A DNA stretch of 64,000 nt from Escherichia coli (GCF_044324875.1 NZ_CP172185.1); one strand, 5' to 3'; numbered from the stretch's first letter, positions 6,658 through 60,254 are shown. A program made the numbers and translations. The notes: generated by a model from the letters alone, not told the origin.

Positions 6658-7188
6658 GTGATTGATGACGATGGCTACCGCCCAAACGTAGGTATCGTGA
6701 TTTGTAATCGCCAGGGGCAGGTAATGTGGGCCCGGCGATTTGGTCAGCACTCCTGGCAATTTCCGCAAGGCGGAATCAACCCCGGAGAATCCGCAGAGCA
6801 GGCGATGTACCGTGAATTGTTTGAAGAAGTAGGATTAAGCCGCAAAGACGTTCGAATCCTTGCTTCAACGCGTAACTGGTTGCGCTACAAATTACCGAAA
6901 CGTTTGGTGCGTTGGGACACGAAGCCGGTTTGTATCGGCCAAAAACAAAAATGGTTTCTCTTGCAGCTGGTGAGCGGCGATGCAGAAATCAATATGCAAA
7001 CCAGCAGTACACCAGAGTTTGACGGCTGGCGATGGGTAAGTTACTGGTATCCGGTCAGACAGGTGGTGTCATTTAAACGTGATGTCTACCGTAGGGTAAT
7101 GAAAGAGTTCGCGAGTGTGGTGATGTCACTGCAGGAAAATACGCCAAAACCACAAAACGCATCTGCTTATCGACGTAAAAGAGGTTAA
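6658..7188 (+). CDS. rppH: RNA pyrophosphohydrolase (Nudix)
   Basis: 176-aa ORF with GTG start; Nudix box ([22 protein letters not shown]). Confidence 0.92.
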
Positions 7189-7200
7189 GTCACGCCAATT

Positions 7201-9447
7201 ATGCTCACTCGCCTGCGCGAAATAGTCGAAAAGGTAGCCAGCGCACCACGCCTGAATGAGGCGTTAAATATTCTGGTTACCGACATCTGTCTTGCGATGG
7301 ATACCGAGGTCTGTTCGGTTTACCTTGCCGATCATGATCGACGTTGTTACTACCTGATGGCGACCCGGGGGCTGAAAAAACCACGCGGTCGCACTGTAAC
7401 GCTCGCGTTTGATGAAGGGATCGTCGGCCTGGTTGGCAGGCTGGCGGAACCGATAAACCTTGCAGATGCGCAAAAGCACCCCAGCTTCAAATACATCCCT
7501 TCCGTAAAAGAAGAACGTTTCCGCGCGTTTTTAGGCGTACCAATTATTCAACGTCGCCAGTTGCTTGGTGTACTGGTGGTACAGCAACGAGAGTTGCGCC
7601 AGTATGACGAAAGTGAAGAATCCTTCCTGGTGACGCTTGCCACTCAGATGGCAGCTATTCTTTCTCAGTCGCAGTTGACTGCCTTGTTTGGACAATATCG
7701 CCAGACGCGAATCCGCGCATTACCGGCAGCGCCTGGTGTGGCGATTGCCGAAGGCTGGCAGGATGCCACGTTACCTTTAATGGAACAGGTGTATCAGGCA
7801 TCAACGCTGGATCCGGCTCTGGAACGCGAACGACTGACCGGGGCGCTGGAAGAAGCGGCAAACGAGTTTCGCCGCTACAGCAAACGCTTTGCCGCCGGTG
7901 CACAAAAAGAAACGGCGGCTATTTTCGATCTTTACTCGCACCTGCTTTCGGACACCCGGCTGCGGCGCGAATTGTTTGCCGAGGTTGATAAAGGCTCGGT
8001 GGCAGAGTGGGCGGTAAAAACGGTCATTGAAAAATTTGCCGAACAGTTTGCCGCGCTAAGCGATAACTATCTCAAAGAGCGGGCTGGCGATTTACGTGCG
8101 CTGGGTCAGCGATTGCTGTTTCATCTTGATGACGCTAATCAAGGGCCGAACGCCTGGCCGGAACGTTTCATTCTGGTGGCAGATGAACTGTCAGCGACAA
8201 CGCTTGCAGAGCTGCCCCAGGATCGCTTAGTCGGTGTTGTCGTGCGAGATGGCGCAGCCAACTCCCATGCTGCGATCATGGTACGTGCGCTGGGGATCCC
8301 TACCGTAATGGGCGCGGACATTCAGCCTTCGGTGCTGCATCGTCGGACGTTGATCGTCGATGGTTATCGCGGTGAATTGCTGGTCGATCCGGAGCCGGTA
8401 CTGCTGCAAGAATATCAGCGGCTAATTAGTGAAGAGATTGAACTTAGCCGTCTGGCGGAAGATGACGTCAATTTACCCGCCCAGTTAAAAAGCGGCGAGC
8501 GCATTAAAGTCATGCTCAATGCCGGTTTAAGCCCGGAACATGAAGAAAAACTGGGCAGCCGTATTGATGGCATAGGACTTTATCGCACTGAAATCCCATT
8601 CATGCTGCAAAGTGGTTTTCCGTCGGAAGAAGAACAGGTGGCGCAGTATCAGGGGATGCTGCAAATGTTCAATGATAAACCCGTCACCTTGCGTACGCTG
8701 GATGTCGGAGCAGATAAGCAGCTGCCTTACATGCCGATCAGCGAAGAGAATCCATGCCTGGGTTGGCGTGGGATTCGCATTACGCTCGATCAGCCGGAGA
8801 TCTTCTTGATCCAGGTGCGGGCGATGCTGCGTGCTAATGCCGCTACGGGCAACCTGAATATTCTGTTGCCGATGGTCACCAGCCTCGATGAAGTTGACGA
8901 AGCACGCCGCCTGATTGAACGTGCCGGACGTGAAGTCGAGGAGATGATCGGTTACGAAATTCCCAAACCACGTATCGGCATCATGCTTGAAGTGCCGTCA
9001 ATGGTATTTATGCTGCCGCATCTGGCAAAGCGGGTCGATTTTATCTCTGTTGGCACCAACGATCTGACTCAATACATCCTGGCCGTTGATCGCAACAATA
9101 CCCGGGTGGCGAACATTTATGACAGTCTTCATCCTGCAATGTTACGAGCTCTGGCGATGATCGCTCGGGAAGCGGAAATACATGGTATCGATCTCCGTTT
9201 GTGCGGTGAAATGGCGGGCGATCCCATGTGCGTGGCAATCCTCATTGGGCTTGGGTATCGTCATCTGTCTATGAACGGACGTTCTGTAGCGCGCGTAAAA
9301 TACCTGCTGCGGCGCATTGATTATGCCGAAGCAGAAAATCTTGCGCAGCGTAGTCTGGAAGCGCAACTGGCGACCGAAGTTCGCCATCAGGTTGCAGCCT
9401 TTATGGAGCGTCGCGGCATGGGCGGGTTGATTCGCGGAGGGTTATAG
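7201..9447 (+). CDS. ptsP: phosphoenolpyruvate-protein phosphotransferase EI-Ntr (GAF + PEP-utilising domains)
   Basis: 748-aa ORF immediately downstream of rppH; enzyme-I family sequence. Confidence 0.93.
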   Translation: MLTRLREIVEKVASAPRLNEALNILVTDICLAMDTEVCSVYLADHDRRCYYLMATRGLKKPRGRTVTLAFDEGIVGLVGRLAEPINLADAQKHPSFKYIPSVKEERFRAFLGVPIIQRRQLLGVLVVQQRELRQYDESEESFLVTLATQMAAILSQSQLTALFGQYRQTRIRALPAAPGVAIAEGWQDATLPLMEQVYQASTLDPALERERLTGALEEAANEFRRYSKRFAAGAQKETAAIFDLYSHLLSDTRLRRELFAEVDKGSVAEWAVKTVIEKFAEQFAALSDNYLKERAGDLRALGQRLLFHLDDANQGPNAWPERFILVADELSATTLAELPQDRLVGVVVRDGAANSHAAIMVRALGIPTVMGADIQPSVLHRRTLIVDGYRGELLVDPEPVLLQEYQRLISEEIELSRLAEDDVNLPAQLKSGERIKVMLNAGLSPEHEEKLGSRIDGIGLYRTEIPFMLQSGFPSEEEQVAQYQGMLQMFNDKPVTLRTLDVGADKQLPYMPISEENPCLGWRGIRITLDQPEIFLIQVRAMLRANAATGNLNILLPMVTSLDEVDEARRLIERAGREVEEMIGYEIPKPRIGIMLEVPSMVFMLPHLAKRVDFISVGTNDLTQYILAVDRNNTRVANIYDSLHPAMLRALAMIAREAEIHGIDLRLCGEMAGDPMCVAILIGLGYRHLSMNGRSVARVKYLLRRIDYAEAENLAQRSLEAQLATEVRHQVAAFMERRGMGGLIRGGL

Positions 9448-9597
9448 CGCGGATCATATACATATCTTTTAACGGTATCCGGCAACCAGCCAGGTCCCCT
9501 TGTGCTATTATTCGCACCTTTGGAGCGCCTGAAACCTGCGGCGCGCATTTCAATCGCTGTTCTCTTTCAGCGAAATAACAAGAACTTGTGGTGACAG

Positions 9598-10473
9598 ATG
9601 ACCAGTAGCTATCTGCATTTTCCGGAGTTTGATCCGGTCATTTTCTCAATAGGACCCGTAGCGCTTCACTGGTACGGCCTGATGTATCTGGTGGGTTTCA
9701 TTTTTGCAATGTGGCTGGCAACACGTCGGGCGAATCGTCCGGGCAGCGGCTGGACCAAAAATGAAGTTGAAAACTTACTCTATGCGGGCTTCCTCGGCGT
9801 CTTCCTCGGTGGACGTATTGGTTATGTTCTGTTCTACAACTTCCCGCAGTTTATGGCCGATCCGCTGTATCTGTTCCGTGTCTGGGACGGCGGCATGTCC
9901 TTCCACGGCGGCCTGATTGGCGTTATCGTGGTGATGATTATCTTCGCCCGCCGTACTAAACGTTCCTTCTTCCAGGTCTCTGATTTTATCGCACCACTCA
10001 TTCCGTTTGGTCTTGGTGCCGGGCGTCTGGGCAACTTTATTAACGGTGAATTGTGGGGCCGCGTTGACCCGAACTTCCCGTTTGCCATGCTGTTCCCTGG
10101 CTCCCGTACAGAAGATATTTTGCTGCTGCAAACCAACCCGCAGTGGCAATCCATTTTCGATACTTACGGTGTGCTGCCGCGCCACCCATCACAGCTTTAC
10201 GAGCTGTTGCTGGAAGGTGTAGTGCTGTTTATTATCCTCAACCTGTATATTCGTAAACCGCGCCCAATGGGAGCTGTCTCAGGTTTGTTCCTGATTGGTT
10301 ACGGCGCGTTTCGCATCATTGTTGAGTTTTTCCGCCAGCCCGACGCGCAGTTTACTGGTGCCTGGGTGCAGTACATCAGCATGGGACAAATTCTTTCCAT
10401 CCCGATGATTGTCGCGGGTGTGATCATGATGGTCTGGGCATATCGTCGCAGCCCACAGCAACACGTTTCCTGA
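9598..10473 (+). CDS. lgt: prolipoprotein diacylglyceryl transferase
   Basis: 291-aa membrane ORF recognised as Lgt; followed 7 nt later by thyA. Confidence 0.93.
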
Positions 10474-50777: not shown

Positions 50778-51143
50778 GTCGACAGGGAGTCAGACAACGA
50801 AGTGAACATCAGGATGATGACACTTCTGAAGGACACACCAGGATGGTGTTTCAGGGAAAGGCTTCTGGATGAAGCGAAGAGGATGACGCAGGACGCGTTA
50901 AAGGACACCTCCAGGATGGAGAATGAGAACCGGTCAGGATGATTCGGTGGGTCAGGAAGGCCAGGGACACTTCAGGATGAAGTATCACATCGGGGTGGTG
51001 TGAGCAGGAAGCAATAGTTCAGGATGAACGATTGGCCGCAAGGCCAGAGGAAAAGTTGTCAAGGATGAGCAGGGAGCAACAAAAGTAGCTGGAATGCTGC
51101 GAAACGAACCGGGAGCACTGTGAATACAGTGCTCCCTTTTTTT
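50778..51143 (+). ncRNA. csrB: CsrB small RNA (CsrA-sequestering, multiple GGA motifs)
   Basis: About 366 nt with roughly 15-18 repeats of CAGGA(U/A/C)G-like motifs (catCAGGATGatg, acCAGGATGgtg, tCAGGATGatt, ttCAGGATGaag, ttCAGGATGaac, cAAGGATGag ...) and terminal hairpin gggagcactgtgaatacagtgctccc + T7; boundaries approximate. Confidence 0.85.
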
Positions 51144-51188
51144 ATTCCTGCTATTCTTCGCGGCAGTTTTTCTTATTGAGGTTGCTTT

Positions 51189-52767: not shown

Positions 52768-53201
52768 TACGTTCAGCGAGCGGTAAATGCCGTTTTAGCG
52801 GTGCTGAATCGAATCTTTTCAGGCAAATGCCAGTAAAAACTGCTTCATAGCGCGGATTTTTACTGGCGTTTGCCTGGAGTCAAGCGATCCATTTCATACT
52901 CTTCTTTATTTCTTCGTTTTAACCCTTCCTTTCTTGTTCTTGTTTTCATTTCCGTGAAGTGGATTCCACCGTCCAGGGCTAATGCCAAAATCGGGCCTCA
53001 TTGAACGCATTAATGTTGTGTTGTTGCACGGTGAGCCACTATGGCGCGCTTTTTATACTGCTATTGCCAGATATAAACACGCGCCGTATTCGGCGAACGA
53101 CCTATAAAAACGGCAAAAAACACCCTACGTCACCTCTGATTTCCTGGCGATGTCGCAGTCCAGAGTGAGCGTGGCTAACGCGAATTTTCAGGAGTGCAAC
53201 A

Positions 53202-54554
53202 ATGAGTTCTTTAAGTCAGGCTGCGAGCAGTGTGGAAAAACGCACAAATGCTCGTTACTGGATAGTGGTGATGTTGTTTATCGTCACATCCTTCAACTAC
53301 GGCGACCGCGCTACGCTTTCTATTGCCGGTTCGGAAATGGCCAAAGATATCGGCCTTGATCCCGTGGGAATGGGCTATGTGTTCTCTGCTTTCTCATGGG
53401 CTTATGTTATCGGACAGATCCCTGGTGGTTGGTTGCTGGATCGTTTTGGTTCAAAACGCGTCTACTTCTGGTCGATCTTTATCTGGTCGATGTTTACCTT
53501 GCTGCAAGGCTTCGTCGATATTTTTAGTGGATTCGGCATTATCGTTGCCCTGTTTACGCTGCGCTTCCTGGTCGGGCTTGCTGAAGCGCCATCTTTCCCC
53601 GGCAACAGTCGCATTGTTGCGGCCTGGTTTCCGGCGCAGGAAAGGGGAACGGCGGTGTCGATTTTTAACTCCGCTCAATACTTCGCAACGGTGATCTTCG
53701 CGCCGATTATGGGCTGGCTGACGCATGAAGTGGGCTGGTCACACGTCTTCTTCTTTATGGGCGGTCTGGGCATTGTCATCAGCTTTATCTGGTTGAAAGT
53801 CATCCACGAGCCAAATCAACATCCGGGTGTAAATCAGAAAGAGCTGGAGTACATCGCCGCGGGTGGCGCGCTGATCAATATGGATCAGCAAAATACCAAA
53901 GTTAAAGTGCCGTTCAGCGTGAAGTGGGGGCAGATCAAACAGCTGCTCGGGTCACGGATGATGATCGGCGTTTATATCGGTCAGTACTGTATCAACGCCC
54001 TGACTTACTTTTTCATTACCTGGTTTCCGGTTTATCTGGTGCAGGCGCGTGGGATGTCGATCCTGAAAGCGGGCTTTGTGGCTTCCGTTCCGGCGGTTTG
54101 CGGTTTTATCGGCGGTGTGCTGGGTGGGATTATTTCCGACTGGCTGATGCGCCGCACGGGATCGCTGAACATTGCGCGTAAAACACCGATCGTAATGGGC
54201 ATGTTGCTGTCGATGGTGATGGTGTTCTGCAACTACGTCAACGTTGAGTGGATGATCATCGGTTTTATGGCGCTGGCCTTCTTCGGTAAGGGCATCGGGG
54301 CGCTGGGTTGGGCAGTAATGGCAGATACCGCGCCAAAAGAGATCAGCGGTCTTTCCGGTGGCCTGTTCAACATGTTCGGTAACATTTCTGGCATCGTCAC
54401 GCCAATCGCAATTGGTTATATCGTTGGCACGACTGGCTCGTTTAATGGGGCGCTGATTTATGTTGGTGTTCATGCCTTAATCGCGGTGCTGAGCTACCTG
54501 GTGCTGGTGGGCGATATCAAGCGTATCGAGCTGAAACCTGTCGCGGGGCAATAA
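53202..54554 (+). CDS. gudP: D-glucarate/galactarate transporter (MFS)
   Basis: 450-aa multi-TM ORF at head of gudPXD. Confidence 0.92.
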
Positions 54555-54555
54555 G

Positions 54556-55896
54556 ATGACGACACAATCCAGTCCTGTTATTACTGATATGAAAGTCATT
54601 CCGGTCGCCGGGCACGATAGCATGTTGCTTAATATTGGTGGGGCGCATAACGCATATTTCACTCGCAATATTGTGGTACTCACCGATAACGCCGGGCATA
54701 CCGGCATTGGTGAAGCGCCAGGCGGAGAGGTGATTTATCAGACACTGGTCGATGCTATTCCGATGGTGTTGGGCCAGGAAGTTGCGCGCCTGAATAAAGT
54801 GGTTCAGCAGGTGCATAAAGGTAATCAGGCAGCCGATTTTGATACCTTCGGCAAAGGTGCCTGGACTTTTGAATTGCGCGTTAATGCCGTGGCGGCGCTG
54901 GAAGCCGCCTTGCTTGACCTGCTAGGTAAGGCGCTGAATGTTCCGGTCTGCGAACTGTTGGGGCCAGGCAAGCAACGCGAGGCTATTACCGTCCTCGGTT
55001 ATCTGTTTTATATCGGTGATCGGACCAAAACCGATCTTCCTTATCTGGAAAATACGCCGGGCAACCATGAGTGGTATCAATTGCGGCATCAGAAAGCGAT
55101 GAACAGCGAAGCCGTTGTGCGTCTGGCGGAAGCCTCACAGGATCGCTACGGCTTTAAAGATTTCAAACTTAAGGGCGGCGTGTTACCTGGCGAGCAAGAA
55201 ATCGACACTGTTCGTGCATTGAAGAAACGCTTCCCGGATGCGCGGATTACCGTTGATCCCAACGGTGCATGGCTGCTTGATGAAGCTATTTCTCTGTGCA
55301 AAGGGCTGAATGATGTTCTTACCTATGCTGAAGATCCATGCGGAGCAGAACAGGGGTTCTCCGGACGTGAAGTGATGGCGGAGTTTCGACGGGCGACCGG
55401 CTTGCCCGTCGCGACTAACATGATCGCCACCAACTGGCGCGAAATGGGCCATGCGGTGATGCTCAATGCGGTAGATATTCCACTTGCCGATCCGCATTTC
55501 TGGACGCTTTCCGGTGCAGTCCGCGTAGCGCAGCTTTGCGACGACTGGGGGCTGACCTGGGGCTGCCATTCCAATAATCACTTCGATATCTCTCTGGCGA
55601 TGTTTACCCATGTGGGTGCGGCGGCACCGGGTAATCCTACCGCTATCGATACCCACTGGATTTGGCAGGAGGGCGATTGTCGCCTGACCAAAAATCCGCT
55701 GGAGATTAAAAACGGAAAAATTGCCGTTCCTGATGCGCCCGGTCTGGGCGTGGAACTGGACTGGGAGCAGGTACATAAGGCGCATGAGGCCTATAAACGT
55801 CTGCCTGGCGGTGCGCGTAACGACGCGGGCCCGATGCAGTACCTGATCCCCGGCTGGACCTTTGACCGTAAACGTCCCGTTTTCGGCCGTCATTGA
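54556..55896 (+). CDS. gudX: glucarate dehydratase-related protein (enolase superfamily paralog)
   Basis: 446-aa ORF clearly paralogous to the next ORF (shared blocks e.g. [37 protein letters not shown]). Confidence 0.92.
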
Positions 55897-55916
55897 TTTT
55901 GAAAAAGGACATAAAT

Positions 55917-57257
55917 ATGAGTTCTCAATTTACGACGCCTGTTGTTACTGAAATGCAGGTCATCCCGGTGGCGGGCCATGACAGTATGCTGATGAATCTG
56001 AGTGGTGCACACGCACCGTTCTTCACGCGTAATATTGTGATTATCAAAGATAATTCTGGTCACACCGGGGTAGGGGAAATTCCCGGCGGCGAGAAAATCC
56101 GTAAAACGCTGGAAGATGCGATTCCGCTAGTGGTGGGTAAAACGCTGGGTGAATACAAAAACGTTCTGACGCTGGTGCGTAATACATTTGCCGATCGTGA
56201 TGCCGGCGGGCGCGGTTTGCAGACATTTGATTTGCGGACCACTATTCATGTGGTTACCGGGATAGAAGCGGCAATGCTGGATCTGCTGGGGCAACATCTG
56301 GGGGTTAACGTGGCATCGCTGCTGGGCGATGGTCAACAGCGTAGCGAAGTCGAAATGCTCGGTTATCTGTTCTTCGTCGGTAATCGCAAAGCCACACCGC
56401 TGCCGTATCAAAGCCAGCCGGATGATAAATGTGACTGGTATCGCCTGCGTCACGAAGAAGCGATGACGCCGGATGCGGTGGTGCGCCTGGCGGAAGCGGC
56501 ATATGAAAAATATGGCTTCAACGATTTCAAACTGAAGGGCGGTGTACTGGCCGGGGAAGAAGAAGCAGAATCTATTGTGGCACTGGCGCAACGCTTCCCA
56601 CAGGCGCGTATTACCCTCGATCCTAACGGTGCCTGGTCGCTGAACGAAGCGATTAAAATTGGTAAATACCTGAAAGGTTCGCTGGCTTATGCAGAAGATC
56701 CGTGTGGTGCGGAGCAAGGTTTCTCCGGGCGTGAAGTGATGGCAGAGTTCCGTCGCGCGACTGGCCTGCCGACCGCAACCAATATGATCGCCACCGACTG
56801 GCGGCAGATGGGCCATACGCTCTCGTTACAATCCGTTGATATCCCGCTGGCGGATCCGCATTTCTGGACGATGCAAGGTTCGGTACGTGTGGCGCAAATG
56901 TGCCATGAATTTGGCCTGACCTGGGGTTCGCACTCTAACAACCACTTCGATATTTCCCTGGCGATGTTTACCCATGTAGCCGCTGCTGCACCGGGTAAAA
57001 TTACTGCTATTGATACGCACTGGATCTGGCAGGAAGGCAATCAGCGTCTGACCAAAGAACCGTTTGAGATCAAAGGCGGGCTGGTACAGGTGCCGCAAAA
57101 ACCAGGATTGGGCGTAGAAATCGATATGGATCAGGTGATGAAAGCCCACGAGCTGTATCAGAAACATGGGCTTGGTGCGCGAGACGATGCGATGGGAATG
57201 CAGTATCTGATTCCTGGCTGGACGTTTGATAACAAGCGCCCGTGCATGGTGCGTTAA
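55917..57257 (+). CDS. gudD: D-glucarate dehydratase
   Basis: Start at ATG 55917 ([20 protein letters not shown]..), 446 aa; ORF track is 5'-extended. Confidence 0.93.
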
Positions 57258-57331
57258 GACAGAAAACCAAAACCGGCTTCATAAGAAGTCGGTTTGAGAT
57301 TACTGACGAAGTGGTTTACGGGGCCGGTTTT

Positions 57332-57433
57332 CCCCCTCGCCCTTTCAGGGAGAGGGGCGGGGTGAGGGTAATCATTCGCACTTGCGTTGGCCTGTTCCCC
57401 TCACCCTAACCCTCTCCCCGGAGGGGCGAGGGG
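57332..57433. repeat. large imperfect palindrome (about 37-bp G/C-rich arms, about 28-nt spacer) between convergent gudD and barA
   Basis: Left arm ccccctcgccctttcagggagaggggcggggtgaggg vs right arm cccctcaccctaaccctctccccggaggggcgagggg are near reverse complements. Confidence 0.55.
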
Positions 57434-57497
57434 ACTGTCTGTGCTGCTCCCAGCATTGGCATTGGACGGAACCTATTTTGACTCGACAAGACGTCCA

Positions 57498-60254
57498 TTA
57501 CCCGAGAATTTTGCTGGCTTCGCGCGCGACATTATCCATCTCGTCCAACAGTTCCAGCAGCTCCGGCTCCAAATCTTCTTCTTTAGTACCGCTACGTAGC
57601 TGTTGTTCGATCAGCTGGCAGAGATTCTTCATACGCGGCACACCGCTATAGCCGCAACTGCCATGCAGTTTATGAATCAAATCAACCAGGCCTTCCGGGT
57701 TTTCTCCAACCAGCTGTTCCTCAACTTTGTTGCGAACTTCAGGCAGGAAATCGAGTAACATTTGCAGCATATCGCGCGCTAAATCGGTTTTTCCTGCTGC
57801 CTGGCGTAGTGCCAGTTGCCAGTCGAGGGTCGCATTCGGGTTCACCACAATTTCGTTGACTTCGGGCGTCACGACGCGAGACGAAATACCGCTGCCAGGC
57901 TTGTAGCGCAACAACAAATTATGCAATCGCTCTTCTTCAATCGGTTTCGCCAGATAATCGCTCATCCCTGCGCCAAGCAGCTTCTCTTTTTGCCCGGCCA
58001 TTGCATGCGCCGTTACCGCGATAACTGGCGTTTGTTGCTGATGGGGGAGCTGGTGGATGAGTTCGCAGGCCCGAATGCCGTCCATGTCCGGCATTTGAAT
58101 ATCCATTAAGATCAAATCGAACGGCATCTGTTTCGCCCGTTCAACCGCCTGATGCCCGCTATCGCAAAGTTCCACATGTTGCACCATATCTTCCAGCAAT
58201 GCGCCGATAAGTTTCAGGTTAGCGGGGTTGTCATCAACCGCCATGACTGTCATTGCCAGCTTACTTTCATCGGTTACAGGCAAAAGCGTGTTTTGTTTGT
58301 GATGACAAAATTCCGTCAGGGCAGGTAACAGGCGCGTAGGTGTTAATGGTTTCAGCAGACACGCGCCGATACCATCTTGCTTAAGTTTTTCAGCATTGAC
58401 TTGTGCATGGCAAGGAAGTGCCAGCATCAGGAAATCGGTCATCGATACCGCTTTCGCTAATCGCTCATGTTGCATTGTTAGCGGCTCGCGGAAGGTCACC
58501 GCAATGCCTAATAACATCATGTCGTAATGCGCGGGAGGCAGCGCGGAGAACGTTGGGCTATAAACCACTTCCAGCGGCGTTTCACTTAAAATATCCAGCG
58601 TGCATTGCGCTGCTGCGGAGTTTGGTTCGACATAGGCCAGGCGCTTGCCGGCGAGGCACTGGGTGGATGGCCCTTCGATAATAATGTTCGGGTTCAGATC
58701 GAGATTAATGTGGAACCAGAAAGTTGAACCGCGATTCGGCTGGCTATGGAACGAAATATCGCCGCCCATTTCATTAACCAGTTTTTGTGTAATCACCAGC
58801 CCCAGCCCGGTGCCACCATGACGGCGGGAAATACTGGCATCAGCCTGTCGGAAGGCCTGGAATAAGCGCGATTGATCGCGTTCAGGAATACCAATGCCGG
58901 TATCCCGAATCTGCACTTCAATCTGCACTTTAGTATTACTCAGCGCACGTTTTTCTACCAGAATATCAATGTTGCCATTCTCGGTGAATTTAATTGCATT
59001 CCCTACCAGGTTAGTGATGATTTGCTGTAATCGCAGTGGGTCGCCAATTACGTTATCGGGCACGTCGCTCTTAATATTGAGCGTCAGTTCCAGCCCTTTA
59101 TCGTGAGAAGAATGTGCCAGCAGGGTAACGACTTCATCCAGCGTGCTGCGTAGTGGGAATGGAATACTTTCCAGAATCAGCTTACCTGCTTCCAGTTTCG
59201 AGAAGTCGAGAACATCATTAATAATTGCCAGCAAATTATTTGCCGAACGTTCAATCGTATTCAGGTGATCGCGCTGCGTTGGTGTTAATTCTGTTTTCAG
59301 CGTCAGGCGGGTAAAGCCAATAACACCATTCAGTGGTGTACGCAGCTCGTGTGACATATTTGCCAAAAACTCGGATTTAATACGCGCCGCTTCCTGGGCG
59401 CGCTTTTTCGCCAGATCCAACTCAACGTTCTGAATTTCCATCTGCTCCAGCGTTTCACGCAGATCGGACGTCGCCTGGTCGATATTGTGCTGCATCTCTT
59501 CGTGATAAGCAGCCAGCGACATTGCCATCGAGTTGATACCGTTTTTCAGCATATCCAGCTCGCCGAGCATAAATCCTTCCACCCGGCTGTCGAGTTGCCC
59601 GCGACGGATGCGGTCGACGGTATTCACCATGTTGCGAATCGGACCGGTTACATCGCGCATTAAGCGCCAGCCAAAAATAAGCGCAATACCGATACAAAAC
59701 AGCATCATCACGCTGGAAATAAAGATCTCTTTATATTGCTGCAAGCGAACCGATTTAAGATCCAGCTCCAGCGCAATATATCCCAGCATATTTTGACTAT
59801 TTTTGGCATCGCTACTGGGCGATTCGTCGGGGGAGTAACTCTCAGAAATAATCGGCGTGCGGAGGATCATAATATCGCCGTCACGAGTGACAGTGAGCTG
59901 GCGAGGAAACGGCACGTTGCTGCCGAGCTGCATTGATGAAGGATCAAGATGAAAATTGGAGGTGACAAAGAGTCGGTTATTTTCATCATAAACCGAAATC
60001 GCGCGAACAATATCGGAATGGCGACGATGCAGTACGCTTATTAACTGACCGATAGATTCGCGATTTTGCAGGCTCATGCCATATTCAGTAGAAACTGCAA
60101 GCGGCTCAATAATGCTGGCTCCGGCATCTTCCAGTTGACGCTGCAAGTCGTTATAGCGATGCACAACGAAAAAGATACTCAGCAATAAACCAATAAGGAC
60201 GGTCGGTGCCAGGATCAGAATCATCATGCGTGCGCGCAGGCTGTAGTTGGTCAT
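57498..60254 (-). CDS. barA: hybrid sensor histidine kinase BarA (HAMP-HisKA-HATPase-REC-HPt)
   Basis: 918-aa ORF with H-box ([12 protein letters not shown]), receiver and HPt regions. Confidence 0.95.

What the first reader, a model, noticed from the sequence alone, without database searches (positions are those of the whole stretch)
54556..55896. gudX: enolase-superfamily paralog of glucarate dehydratase with unresolved function
gudX and gudD are tandem paralogs of the same length sharing long identical blocks. GudD is the known dehydratase, while the physiological substrate of GudX is not established to my knowledge. Both genes also carry long antisense ORFs at equivalent positions, which I take to be a by-product of the duplication rather than genes.
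Basis: partly seen in the sequence, partly recalled or inferred. Interest (0 to 1): 0.3.

Follow-up and report, generated by a model that had tools for sequence, protein, structure and literature searches.

The report
gudX, glucarate dehydratase's conserved partner paralog
This is the known E. coli gene gudX, an old, carefully preserved copy of the glucarate dehydratase gene that always sits just upstream of it; its exact job is still unproven, so the finding is correct but ordinary.

Summary
Window 54556-55896 (+) is gudX, the middle gene of gudP-gudX-gudD. It is about 99% identical to the E. coli K-12 "glucarate dehydratase-related protein" solved as PDB 4IL0 and 4GYP.

GudX and GudD are both 446 aa and 63% identical. 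The identical blocks exist at protein level only. Synonymous sites are saturated, so the duplication is ancient and there is no gene conversion.

All 18 GlucD catalytic and ligand residues are present in GudX and invariant in 85 GudX orthologues. dN/dS is 0.030, against 0.032 for GudD. In every locus long enough to judge (81 of 81, from Enterobacterales to Neisseria) gudX lies between the transporter gene and gudD.

Differences specific to GudX cluster in the lid loop next to substrate-binding Thr103 (Q102W, two residues shorter) and beside the catalytic His (S338C). PDB 4GYP holds both proteins.

Best reading: a selected, active-site-intact partner subunit of GudD in hexarate catabolism, with its own substrate or role unproven. 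I found no paper defining an activity.

The antisense ORFs are codon-usage artefacts. They are no longer than synonymous shuffles give, are not conserved, and also occur in the unrelated gudP. Already known; low interest.

The parts
53202..54554 (+). gudP, an MFS glucarate/galactarate transporter and first gene of the operon
   Evidence: 450-aa ORF; Pfam MFS_1 at 4.7e-57; annotated gudP in E. coli RefSeq genomes; found upstream of gudX in the related loci that reach that far.
54556..55896 (+). gudX (old names ygcY, GlucDRP), the enolase-superfamily paralogue of glucarate dehydratase that is the subject of the finding
   Evidence: 446-aa ORF starting 1 nt after the gudP stop. About 99% identical to PDB 4il0/4gyp_C 'glucarate dehydratase-related protein'. 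MR_MLE_C 6.9e-51 and MR_MLE_N 9.7e-09. 63% identical to GudD. TIGR03247 score 749, below the 828.7 cut-off.
54859..54900 (+). Codons 102-115 of gudX. They encode the remodelled lid loop ([15 protein letters not shown]) next to substrate-binding Thr104, which is GudD Thr103.
   Evidence: 9 of the 22 clade-discriminating positions fall here: W103/Q102, E106/D105, loss of T109 (the neighbouring T108 is also absent from GudX and discriminates at the 95% level within Enterobacterales), V/I, N/H, A/V, A/T, L/I. The motif [18 protein letters not shown][A/S]ALL is identical in Gallibacterium, Gilliamella, Entomomonas and Neisseria GudX.
55165..55173 (+). Codons for the K204-x-K206 motif of GudX, matching GudD K205 and K207 (the general base)
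   Evidence: Residue mapping; invariant in 85 of 85 GudX orthologues. The catalytic role of the GlucD residues comes from my own knowledge of the published GlucD work.
55564..55569 (+). Codons C337-H338 of GudX. They hold the catalytic His (GudD H339) preceded by the clade-specific Cys; GudD has Ser338.
   Evidence: WGCHSNNHF is present in 224 of 240 proteins carrying the GudX signature.
55897..55916 (+). gudX-gudD spacer carrying a Shine-Dalgarno-like AAGGA. No terminator lies between the genes.
   Evidence: Sequence; no terminator-like site between the genes. The short spacer is conserved across the related loci.
55917..57257 (+). gudD, the bona fide D-glucarate dehydratase and downstream tandem paralogue
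   Evidence: 446 aa, aligns 1-446 with PDB 1ec7 GlucD at 1030 bits. TIGR03247 score 899, above the cut-off.
55183..55893 (-). 236-aa antisense ORF inside gudX, in the codon-aligned antisense frame. It is an artefact, not a gene.
   Evidence: Only 3 sense codons (CTA123, TCA194, TTA210) create antisense stops. The longest open run, 237 codons, compares with a synonymous-shuffle mean of 222 +/- 54 (p = 0.36). The span stays open in only 13 of 80 orthologues.
56127..57167 (-). 229-aa and 113-aa antisense ORFs inside gudD, in the same frame and split by one stop. They are artefacts.
   Evidence: Two antisense stops (CTA71, TTA304). Observed 232 codons against a shuffle mean of 262 +/- 57 (p = 0.66). 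The span stays open in only 18 of 77 orthologues.
52768..53201 (+). Intergenic region upstream of gudP, presumed to hold the operon promoter and regulatory sites
   Evidence: Inferred from gene layout only. The simple sigma-70 scan found no + strand site here. A CdaR-type regulator gene (Diacid_rec domain) is clustered with the module in other genera.

Best explanation
The ORF is gudX. It encodes the glucarate dehydratase-related protein, an ancient and still selected paralogue of GudD. It is co-transcribed and translationally linked within gudP-gudX-gudD.

Most likely it works as a partner subunit of GudD in D-glucarate/L-idarate (hexarate) catabolism. It keeps a complete enolase-superfamily active site: the KxK general base, the His-Asp dyad, three Mg ligands and all known glucarate ligands. 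It has a remodelled, two-residue-shorter lid loop (Q102W) and a Cys next to the catalytic His. It can assemble with GudD into a mixed 2:2 tetramer.

Shown here: identity, paralogy, intact catalytic residues, strong purifying selection, invariant synteny, and co-occurrence of both chains in one crystal entry.

Inferred: that the mixed tetramer is the physiological form, and that the lid changes tune turnover or stereo/substrate preference at the GudX sites rather than abolish function.

The confidence figure is for the partner-subunit mechanism. The identity as gudX is near certain.
For: Identity: full-length match at about 99% to 4il0/4gyp_C, and RefSeq annotates gudX here.

Ancient duplicate kept by selection: the identical-codon fraction at identical residues is 0.479, against 0.429 expected from codon usage. 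The 28-aa identical block has only 10 of 28 identical codons.

Selection: median dN/dS is 0.030 for gudX and 0.032 for gudD (27 comparisons with dS < 1.5, out of 75 species pairs computed). The median dN ratio is 1.16. Within Enterobacterales, 312 columns are >=95% conserved in GudX and 317 in GudD.

Active site: all 18 GlucD catalytic and ligand positions are identical in GudX and invariant in 85 of 85 GudX orthologues. Truly degenerate family members (P0240, P0243, P0255) have lost many of them.

Partnership: the order gudP-gudX-gudD holds in 77 of 77 Enterobacterales species loci that reach far enough, one of which carries a broken gudD. It also holds in 4 of 4 loci from Pasteurellaceae, Orbaceae, Entomomonas and Neisseria. 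No terminator lies between the genes. PDB entry 4gyp contains 2 GlucDRP chains plus the GlucD sequence.

Derived copy: every outgroup GlucD structure scores higher to GudD than to GudX, e.g. 1bqg at 756 against 656 bits.
Against: GudD crystallises and, from my own knowledge of the literature, is fully active as a homotetramer; PDB 1ec7 and related entries hold GudD chains only. GudX also crystallises alone (4il0, 8 chains). The heteromer is therefore not obligatory in vitro.

gudX can be lost while gudD stays intact. There is a premature stop in Pantoea septica (L071), and ygcY is reported as a pseudogene or absent in S. Dublin and S. Choleraesuis (PMC3282883).

I found no in vivo evidence for the complex and no non-polar gudX phenotype. 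The only fitness report, Dickeya solani Tn-seq on galactarate (PMC10202176), is explained by polarity on the downstream garL, garR and garK genes.

I could not map the discriminating residues onto the 4GYP interface because no coordinates were available. The locus sample was selected through GudX, so it cannot rule out rare GudX-only genomes.
Confidence: 0.55

Rival explanations
1. GudX is a stand-alone dehydratase or epimerase for a different acid sugar (another hexarate or stereoisomer imported by GudP). Its linkage to gudD reflects a shared pathway, not physical association.
For: The catalytic apparatus is fully conserved. The clade-specific changes sit in the specificity-determining cap loops: G28/S29 in the 20s loop, and W103 plus the shortened 100s loop. 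It falls below the glucarate dehydratase equivalog cut-off. It crystallises on its own (4il0).
Against: All residues known to bind glucarate are unchanged. In 81 of 81 informative loci it is never separated from gudD and never joined to a different pathway or transporter. It co-crystallises with GudD (4gyp). No alternative substrate is reported in any paper I could search.
Confidence: 0.22
2. GudX is simply a redundant, low-activity isozyme of GudD that acts as a back-up glucarate dehydratase.
For: It has the same residues, the same operon and the same length. From my own recollection of Hubbard et al. 1998, purified GlucDRP has weak GlucD activity; that paper is not held in the library.
Against: A redundant weak copy should drift or be lost. 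Instead omega is 0.03, equal to gudD. The 22 clade-specific residues are fixed across Gamma- and Betaproteobacteria, and the pair has stayed together since a duplication old enough to saturate synonymous sites.
Confidence: 0.15
3. GudX is a decaying duplicate or catalytically dead pseudoenzyme without selected function.
For: Sporadic pseudogenes exist (L071; Salmonella serovars). It is named only 'enolase C-terminal domain-like protein' by PGAP.
Against: dN/dS is 0.03. Catalytic residues are invariant in 85 of 85 orthologues. The ORF is intact in 79 of 80 species loci. The gene is present across at least 80% of the query in 5406 of 5426 E. coli genomes.
Confidence: 0.03
4. The long antisense ORFs in gudX and gudD are overlapping protein-coding genes.
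For: They are long: 236 and 229 aa.
Against: They are no longer than synonymous-codon shuffles give (p = 0.36 to 0.85 across frames). The same phenomenon occurs in the unrelated gudP. The spans are interrupted in 67 of 80 gudX orthologues and 59 of 77 gudD orthologues.
Confidence: 0.01

Closest known systems
E. coli K-12 GudX / GlucDRP (b2788, formerly ygcY; PDB 4IL0, and 4GYP together with GlucD)
   Same: Essentially the same protein: a full-length alignment with 5 substitutions in 446 residues. Same gene order, gudP-gudX-gudD next to barA.
   Different: Only strain-level substitutions (T2A, E58D, L164V, K379Q, H406Q relative to the crystallised sequence).
E. coli D-glucarate dehydratase GudD/GlucD (PDB 1EC7 and others; NCBIfam TIGR03247)
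   Same: Same fold and domains, same length and 63% identity. The KxK motif, His-Asp dyad, metal ligands and glucarate-binding residues are identical.
   Different: 22 residues are fixed differently between the clades. They are concentrated in the 100s lid loop (Q102W, T108/T109 deleted), in the 20s loop (S29G) and next to the catalytic His (S338C). GudX scores 749 against a TIGR03247 cut-off of 828.7. From my own recollection, its glucarate/idarate turnover is strongly impaired.
PDB 3N6H/3N6J/3PFR 'mandelate racemase/muconate lactonizing protein' (Actinobacillus succinogenes, by my recollection)
   Same: A member of the GudX clade: 790 bits to GudX against 625 to GudD. It carries [18 protein letters not shown] and WGCHSNNHF.
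   Different: 74% identical. It differs in the otherwise shared block (YAEDPCIGENGYSGRE against [16 protein letters not shown]).
Single-copy GlucD homologues without a GudX partner (e.g. P0239; Pseudomonas putida GlucD, 1BQG)
   Same: The same family with the catalytic residues retained.
   Different: P0239 stands alone beside TctA/TctB transporter genes with no tandem paralogue. It is closer to GudD than to GudX (59% against 55%; 1bqg at 756 against 656 bits). GudD-like enzymes therefore exist without GudX, whereas no GudX without GudD was seen.

Membership tests
Enolase superfamily, glucarate dehydratase (GlucD) subgroup | N-terminal capping domain plus C-terminal modified TIM-barrel domain (Pfam MR_MLE_N / MR_MLE_C) | tested here: met
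   MR_MLE_C 6.9e-51 (residues 187-404) and MR_MLE_N 9.7e-09.
Enolase superfamily, glucarate dehydratase (GlucD) subgroup | KxK motif (GlucD K205/K207) and His-Asp dyad (H339/D313) as acid/base catalysts | tested here: met
   GudX K204, K206, H338 and D312 align exactly and are invariant in 85 of 85 orthologues. The residue roles come from my own knowledge of the GlucD literature.
Enolase superfamily, glucarate dehydratase (GlucD) subgroup | Mg2+ ligands (D235, E260/E266, N289) and glucarate ligands (N27, H32, T103, Y150, N237, N341, H368, R422) | tested here: met
   All are identical in GudX and invariant across the clade.
Glucarate dehydratase equivalog (NCBIfam TIGR03247), meaning isofunctional with GudD | Whole-protein score at or above the curated cut-off of 828.7 bits | tested here: not met
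   GudX scores 749.0 bits and GudD 899.3 bits. I therefore do not file GudX as a glucarate dehydratase proper.
Glucarate dehydratase equivalog (NCBIfam TIGR03247), meaning isofunctional with GudD | Physiologically competent dehydration of D-glucarate/L-idarate | not testable with these tools
   This needs enzyme kinetics. My recollection of Hubbard et al. 1998 is that GlucDRP is strongly impaired; the paper is not held.
GudX / GlucDRP orthologous group | Closer to the GlucDRP reference (4IL0) than to GlucD, with the clade signature (W103, two-residue-shorter 100s loop, C337) | tested here: met
   1038 bits to 4il0 against 650 to 1ec7. The signature residues are present.
GudX / GlucDRP orthologous group | Position between the MFS hexarate transporter gene and gudD | tested here: met
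   Window layout. The same order is found in 77 of 77 plus 4 of 4 informative loci.
Heteromeric GudX-GudD enzyme (proposed) | Physical complex of the two proteins | tested here: inconclusive
   PDB 4gyp lists 2 GlucDRP chains, and the GlucD sequence is also assigned to that entry. I take the 2:2 ratio from 18 GlucD chains over 5 entries, assuming 4 chains in each of the other four. No in vivo data were found.
Overlapping antisense protein-coding genes | An open frame longer than codon usage predicts and conserved among orthologues | tested here: not met
   Shuffle p-values are 0.36 to 0.85. The frame stays open in 13 of 80 gudX and 18 of 77 gudD orthologues.

The most novel reading that the evidence does not exclude
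The physiological glucarate dehydratase of bacteria carrying the gudPXD module is an obligate alpha2-beta2 GudX-GudD enzyme. In it, the GudX sites (intact chemistry, remodelled Trp-containing shorter lid) do something GudD sites cannot: they either process a different hexarate or stereoisomer, or act as a substrate-sensing or allosteric subunit. That would explain why an apparently 'impaired' paralogue has been held at omega of about 0.03 and glued to gudD across Gamma- and Betaproteobacteria.
Probability: 0.3. Interest if true: 0.45.

Novelty: already known. Interest (0 to 1): 0.25.

Why it matters
gudX is one of the E. coli genes with a solved structure but no assigned physiological role.

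Glucarate and galactarate use matters for gut colonisation. In Salmonella, hydrogen-stimulated glucarate catabolism aids virulence (PMC3877842), and ygcY is a pseudogene or absent in host-adapted Salmonella serovars (PMC3282883).

GudX is as strongly constrained as GudD, keeps every catalytic residue, and is never found apart from gudD in the sample. This turns 'unknown paralogue' into a specific, testable hypothesis of a heteromeric partner with a lid-loop-tuned site. It argues against treating gudX as redundant or dead in metabolic models.

It does not change the picture of the pathway, and nothing here is new in kind.

Tried and rejected
**Gene conversion or recent duplication as the source of the identical blocks.** Rejected. 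Synonymous sites are saturated and the longest exact DNA run is 20 nt.

**Duplication as the source of the antisense ORFs.** Rejected. Codon-usage shuffles reproduce them, and gudP shows the same feature.

**Dickeya solani Tn-seq 'gudX needed on galactarate' as evidence of a GudX function.** Rejected. The genes lie in the order gudP, gudX, gudD, garL, garR, garK on one strand (apparently one operon), so insertions are probably polar. gudD scores too, although the paper's own annotation lists a separate galactarate dehydratase gene, garD, next to the cluster.

**Literature.** They gave no paper on GudX activity. 'ygcY' mostly hits the MBNL1 RNA motif, and 'gudX' mostly hits author initials. Hubbard 1998, the Aghaie 2008 paper (PMC3259651) and a further review I looked up by PMC id are not held.

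**The search of protein representatives.** Uninformative. At 50% clustering the GudX and GudD clades collapse, and most hits are fragments.

**Other scans.** The Rfam scan of the locus found nothing. The promoter/terminator scan found no sites of note inside the operon.

**Structure work.** I did not run structure prediction or fold search, because an experimental structure of the same protein exists. I could not map residues onto it because no coordinates are exposed by the tools.

Full report
**What is there**

Window 53202-57257 (+) holds three consecutive genes. They are a 450-aa MFS transporter (53202-54554), a 446-aa enolase-superfamily protein (54556-55896, the finding) and a second 446-aa enolase-superfamily protein (55917-57257). 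barA is convergent at 57498-60254.

Megablast places the stretch in 5406 of 5426 complete E. coli genomes, where RefSeq annotates gudP, gudX ('enolase C-terminal domain-like protein') and gudD. The finding's ORF aligns end to end with PDB 4il0 and 4gyp chain C, 'glucarate dehydratase-related protein', with five substitutions. The downstream gene aligns 1-446 with GlucD (1ec7).

**Checking the observation**

GudX and GudD are 63% identical (284/448, E = 0) and of equal length. Identical protein blocks reach 28 aa ([28 protein letters not shown]), then 16, 12 and 12 aa.

At DNA level the picture is different:
- Overall identity is 65% and the longest exact run is 20 nt.
- Among 267 identical, degenerate residues only 128 use the same codon (0.479), against 0.429 expected from codon usage alone.
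- Within the 28-aa block only 10 of 28 codons are identical.

The duplication is therefore ancient, there is no sign of gene conversion, and the identical blocks are held by selection on the protein.

**Antisense ORFs**

The long antisense ORFs (236 aa in gudX; 229 and 113 aa in gudD) are all in the codon-aligned antisense frame. In that frame stops arise only from sense TTA, CTA or TCA codons. gudX has three such codons (123, 194, 210), gudD two (71, 304) and the unrelated gudP six, yet gudP still has a 174-codon open run.

One thousand synonymous-codon shuffles per gene give equally long or longer open frames (p = 0.36 for gudX, 0.66 for gudD in that frame). Across orthologues the same spans stay open in only 13 of 80 (gudX) and 18 of 77 (gudD).

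They are not genes. Their cause is codon usage, not the duplication. Only the shorter second-frame pair (83 and 117 aa) truly sits at equivalent positions, because it is antisense to the conserved block.

**Catalytic residues**

Every GlucD residue I know to be catalytic or ligand-binding is identical in GudX at the aligned position. The residues are N27, H32, T103, Y150, F152, K205, K207, D235, N237, E260, E266, N289, D313, H339, N341, D366, H368 and R422; their roles come from my own knowledge of the GlucD structural papers.

All 18 are invariant in 85 GudX-clade and 81 GudD-clade sequences. By contrast, some distant family members found in passing (P0240, P0243, P0255) have lost many of them. 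By sequence, GudX is not a dead enzyme.

**Selection and distribution**

A GudX-signature scan of one genome per species returned more than 520 confirmed hits, of which the best 80 were kept. All are Enterobacterales.
- In all 77 loci that extend far enough the order is gudP-gudX-gudD. Three loci are cut short.
- Four more loci were chosen from GudX-type proteins outside the order: Gallibacterium, Gilliamella, Entomomonas and a Neisseria species. They show the same MFS-gudX-gudD order, often inside a complete garD/garL/garR/garK/cdaR cluster.
- In those four, gene 1 is GudX-type (71-73% to GudX) and gene 2 is GudD-type (78-86% to GudD).

Pairwise dN/dS against the window gene has a median of 0.030 for gudX and 0.032 for gudD. 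The median dN ratio is 1.16. Within Enterobacterales, 312 columns are >=95% conserved in GudX and 317 in GudD.

Exceptions are rare:
- a premature stop in Pantoea septica gudX (L071);
- a broken gudD in the symbiont Ca. Pantoea haifensis (L051);
- a report that ygcY is a pseudogene or absent in S. Dublin and S. Choleraesuis (PMC3282883).

A GudD-like single-copy gene without a partner exists (P0239). No GudX without GudD was seen.

**What distinguishes GudX**

Twenty-two positions are fixed (>=97%) differently in the two clades. Nine lie in GudD residues 102-116, next to substrate-binding T103: Q102W, D105E, loss of T109 (T108 is also absent from GudX, and is a discriminating position within Enterobacterales), I110V, H111N, V112A, T114A and I116L. 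Others flank catalytic elements:
- S29G in the 20s loop;
- E146T and M147V before Y150;
- N202K before the KxK motif;
- D294N and Q297E after N289;
- S338C immediately before the catalytic His.

The motif [18 protein letters not shown][A/S]ALL is identical from E. coli to Neisseria. All outgroup GlucD structures score higher to GudD than to GudX, for example 1bqg at 756 against 656 bits and 3mzn at 593 against 538. GudX is therefore the derived copy. NCBI's equivalog model excludes it: 749 bits against a cut-off of 828.7.

**How it most likely works**

Shown: an intact active site, strong selection, strict adjacency and order with gudD, no terminator between the genes, and translational linkage (1-nt and 20-nt spacers). 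One crystal entry (4gyp) contains two GlucDRP chains and also the GlucD sequence. I infer a 2:2 ratio from the chain counts.

Inferred: GudX is a partner subunit of GudD in hexarate catabolism. Its own sites bind glucarate-like substrates, but the remodelled lid alters their turnover or preference.

Against: GudD alone and GudX alone both crystallise as homo-oligomers. gudX is occasionally lost while gudD survives. No in vivo evidence was found.

I put about 0.55 on the partner-subunit reading, 0.22 on a stand-alone enzyme with another substrate, 0.15 on a weak redundant isozyme and about 0.03 on no function.

**Literature**

No paper in the searchable library defines a GudX activity. The original characterisation (Hubbard et al. 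1998) is not held. My recollection is that it reports GlucDRP as 65% identical to GlucD and strongly impaired in dehydration and epimerisation.

A Dickeya solani Tn-seq study lists gudX among genes needed on galactarate (PMC10202176). Its own gene table shows the genes in the order gudP, gudX, gudD, garL, garR, garK on one strand, with garD separate. Polarity on garL, garR and garK therefore explains the phenotype; gudD scores too.

**Verdict**

The finding is real and correctly named. The function is still unresolved, but the gene is well known and has solved structures. Novelty: already known. Interest is low (0.25). The modest added value is evidence that GudX is a selected, active-site-intact and inseparable companion of GudD, which makes the heteromer hypothesis directly testable.

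Noticed in passing
window 50787-51146 (+): A full-length CsrB sRNA (Rfam RF00018, 382.9 bits, E = 6.8e-112) lies between syd and yqcC, upstream of the gud operon neighbourhood. barA, which by my own knowledge controls csrB through UvrY, lies about 6 kb away.
   Followed up: partly
window 57333-57433 (gudD-barA intergenic region): An imperfect inverted repeat has 39-nt GC-rich arms (82% complementary, 23 nt apart). A core of about 125 bp is dispersed in E. coli genomes (median 4 places per genome). The full 240-bp spacer as in this window occurs in only 188 of 5426 genomes, so this is a variable, MITE- or REP-like intergenic element. The 89-aa ORF at 57382-57651 (+), which reads '...LTLTLSPEGRGD...', starts inside it and is probably spurious.
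   Followed up: partly
protein P0008 (E. coli, 583 aa, seen on 23 contigs): A natural in-frame chimera joins GudX residues 1 to about 229 directly to GudD from about residue 93 ('...KKRFPDA|[12 protein letters not shown]...'). This implies a deletion spanning the 3' part of gudX and the 5' part of gudD in one E. coli lineage. P0002-P0005 are other single-record GudX-GudD read-through fusions of 650-690 aa.
   Followed up: partly
L071 (Pantoea septica LMG 5345) 7001-8335; L051 (Ca. Pantoea haifensis) about 8364-9683: These were the only broken copies among 80 species. gudX has a premature stop after 213 codons in P. septica while gudD is intact. gudD is disrupted in the symbiont-like Ca. P. haifensis while gudX is intact.
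   Followed up: partly
window 55893-55917: The mechanical ORF list starts gudD at a TTG (55893) overlapping the gudX stop, giving 454 aa. The ATG at 55917 with an AAGGA 8 nt upstream matches the crystallised 446-aa GlucD.
   Followed up: yes
proteins P0240, P0243, P0255 (metagenomic GlucD-family representatives): These are distant GlucD-family members of about full length that have lost the KxK lysines, the catalytic His and/or metal ligands (for example K207V and H339Q in P0240). They are candidate true pseudoenzymes or neofunctionalised members, and contrast with GudX.
   Followed up: no
window 53000-57500 against E. coli genomes: The best complete-genome matches are only 99.0% identical, and 5399 records fall in the 95-99% band. 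The closest species-representative locus is 'Escherichia sp. E1V33' (L001; GudX 99%, dS about 0.09). The window may therefore come from a somewhat divergent Escherichia lineage.
   Followed up: no
L081-L083 (Gallibacterium, Gilliamella, Entomomonas): Outside Enterobacterales the gudP-gudX-gudD module is fused into a single cluster with garD (in two of the three), garL, garR, a glycerate kinase (GarK-type or MOFRL-type) and a cdaR-like regulator. In E. coli these are spread over separate loci.
   Followed up: no
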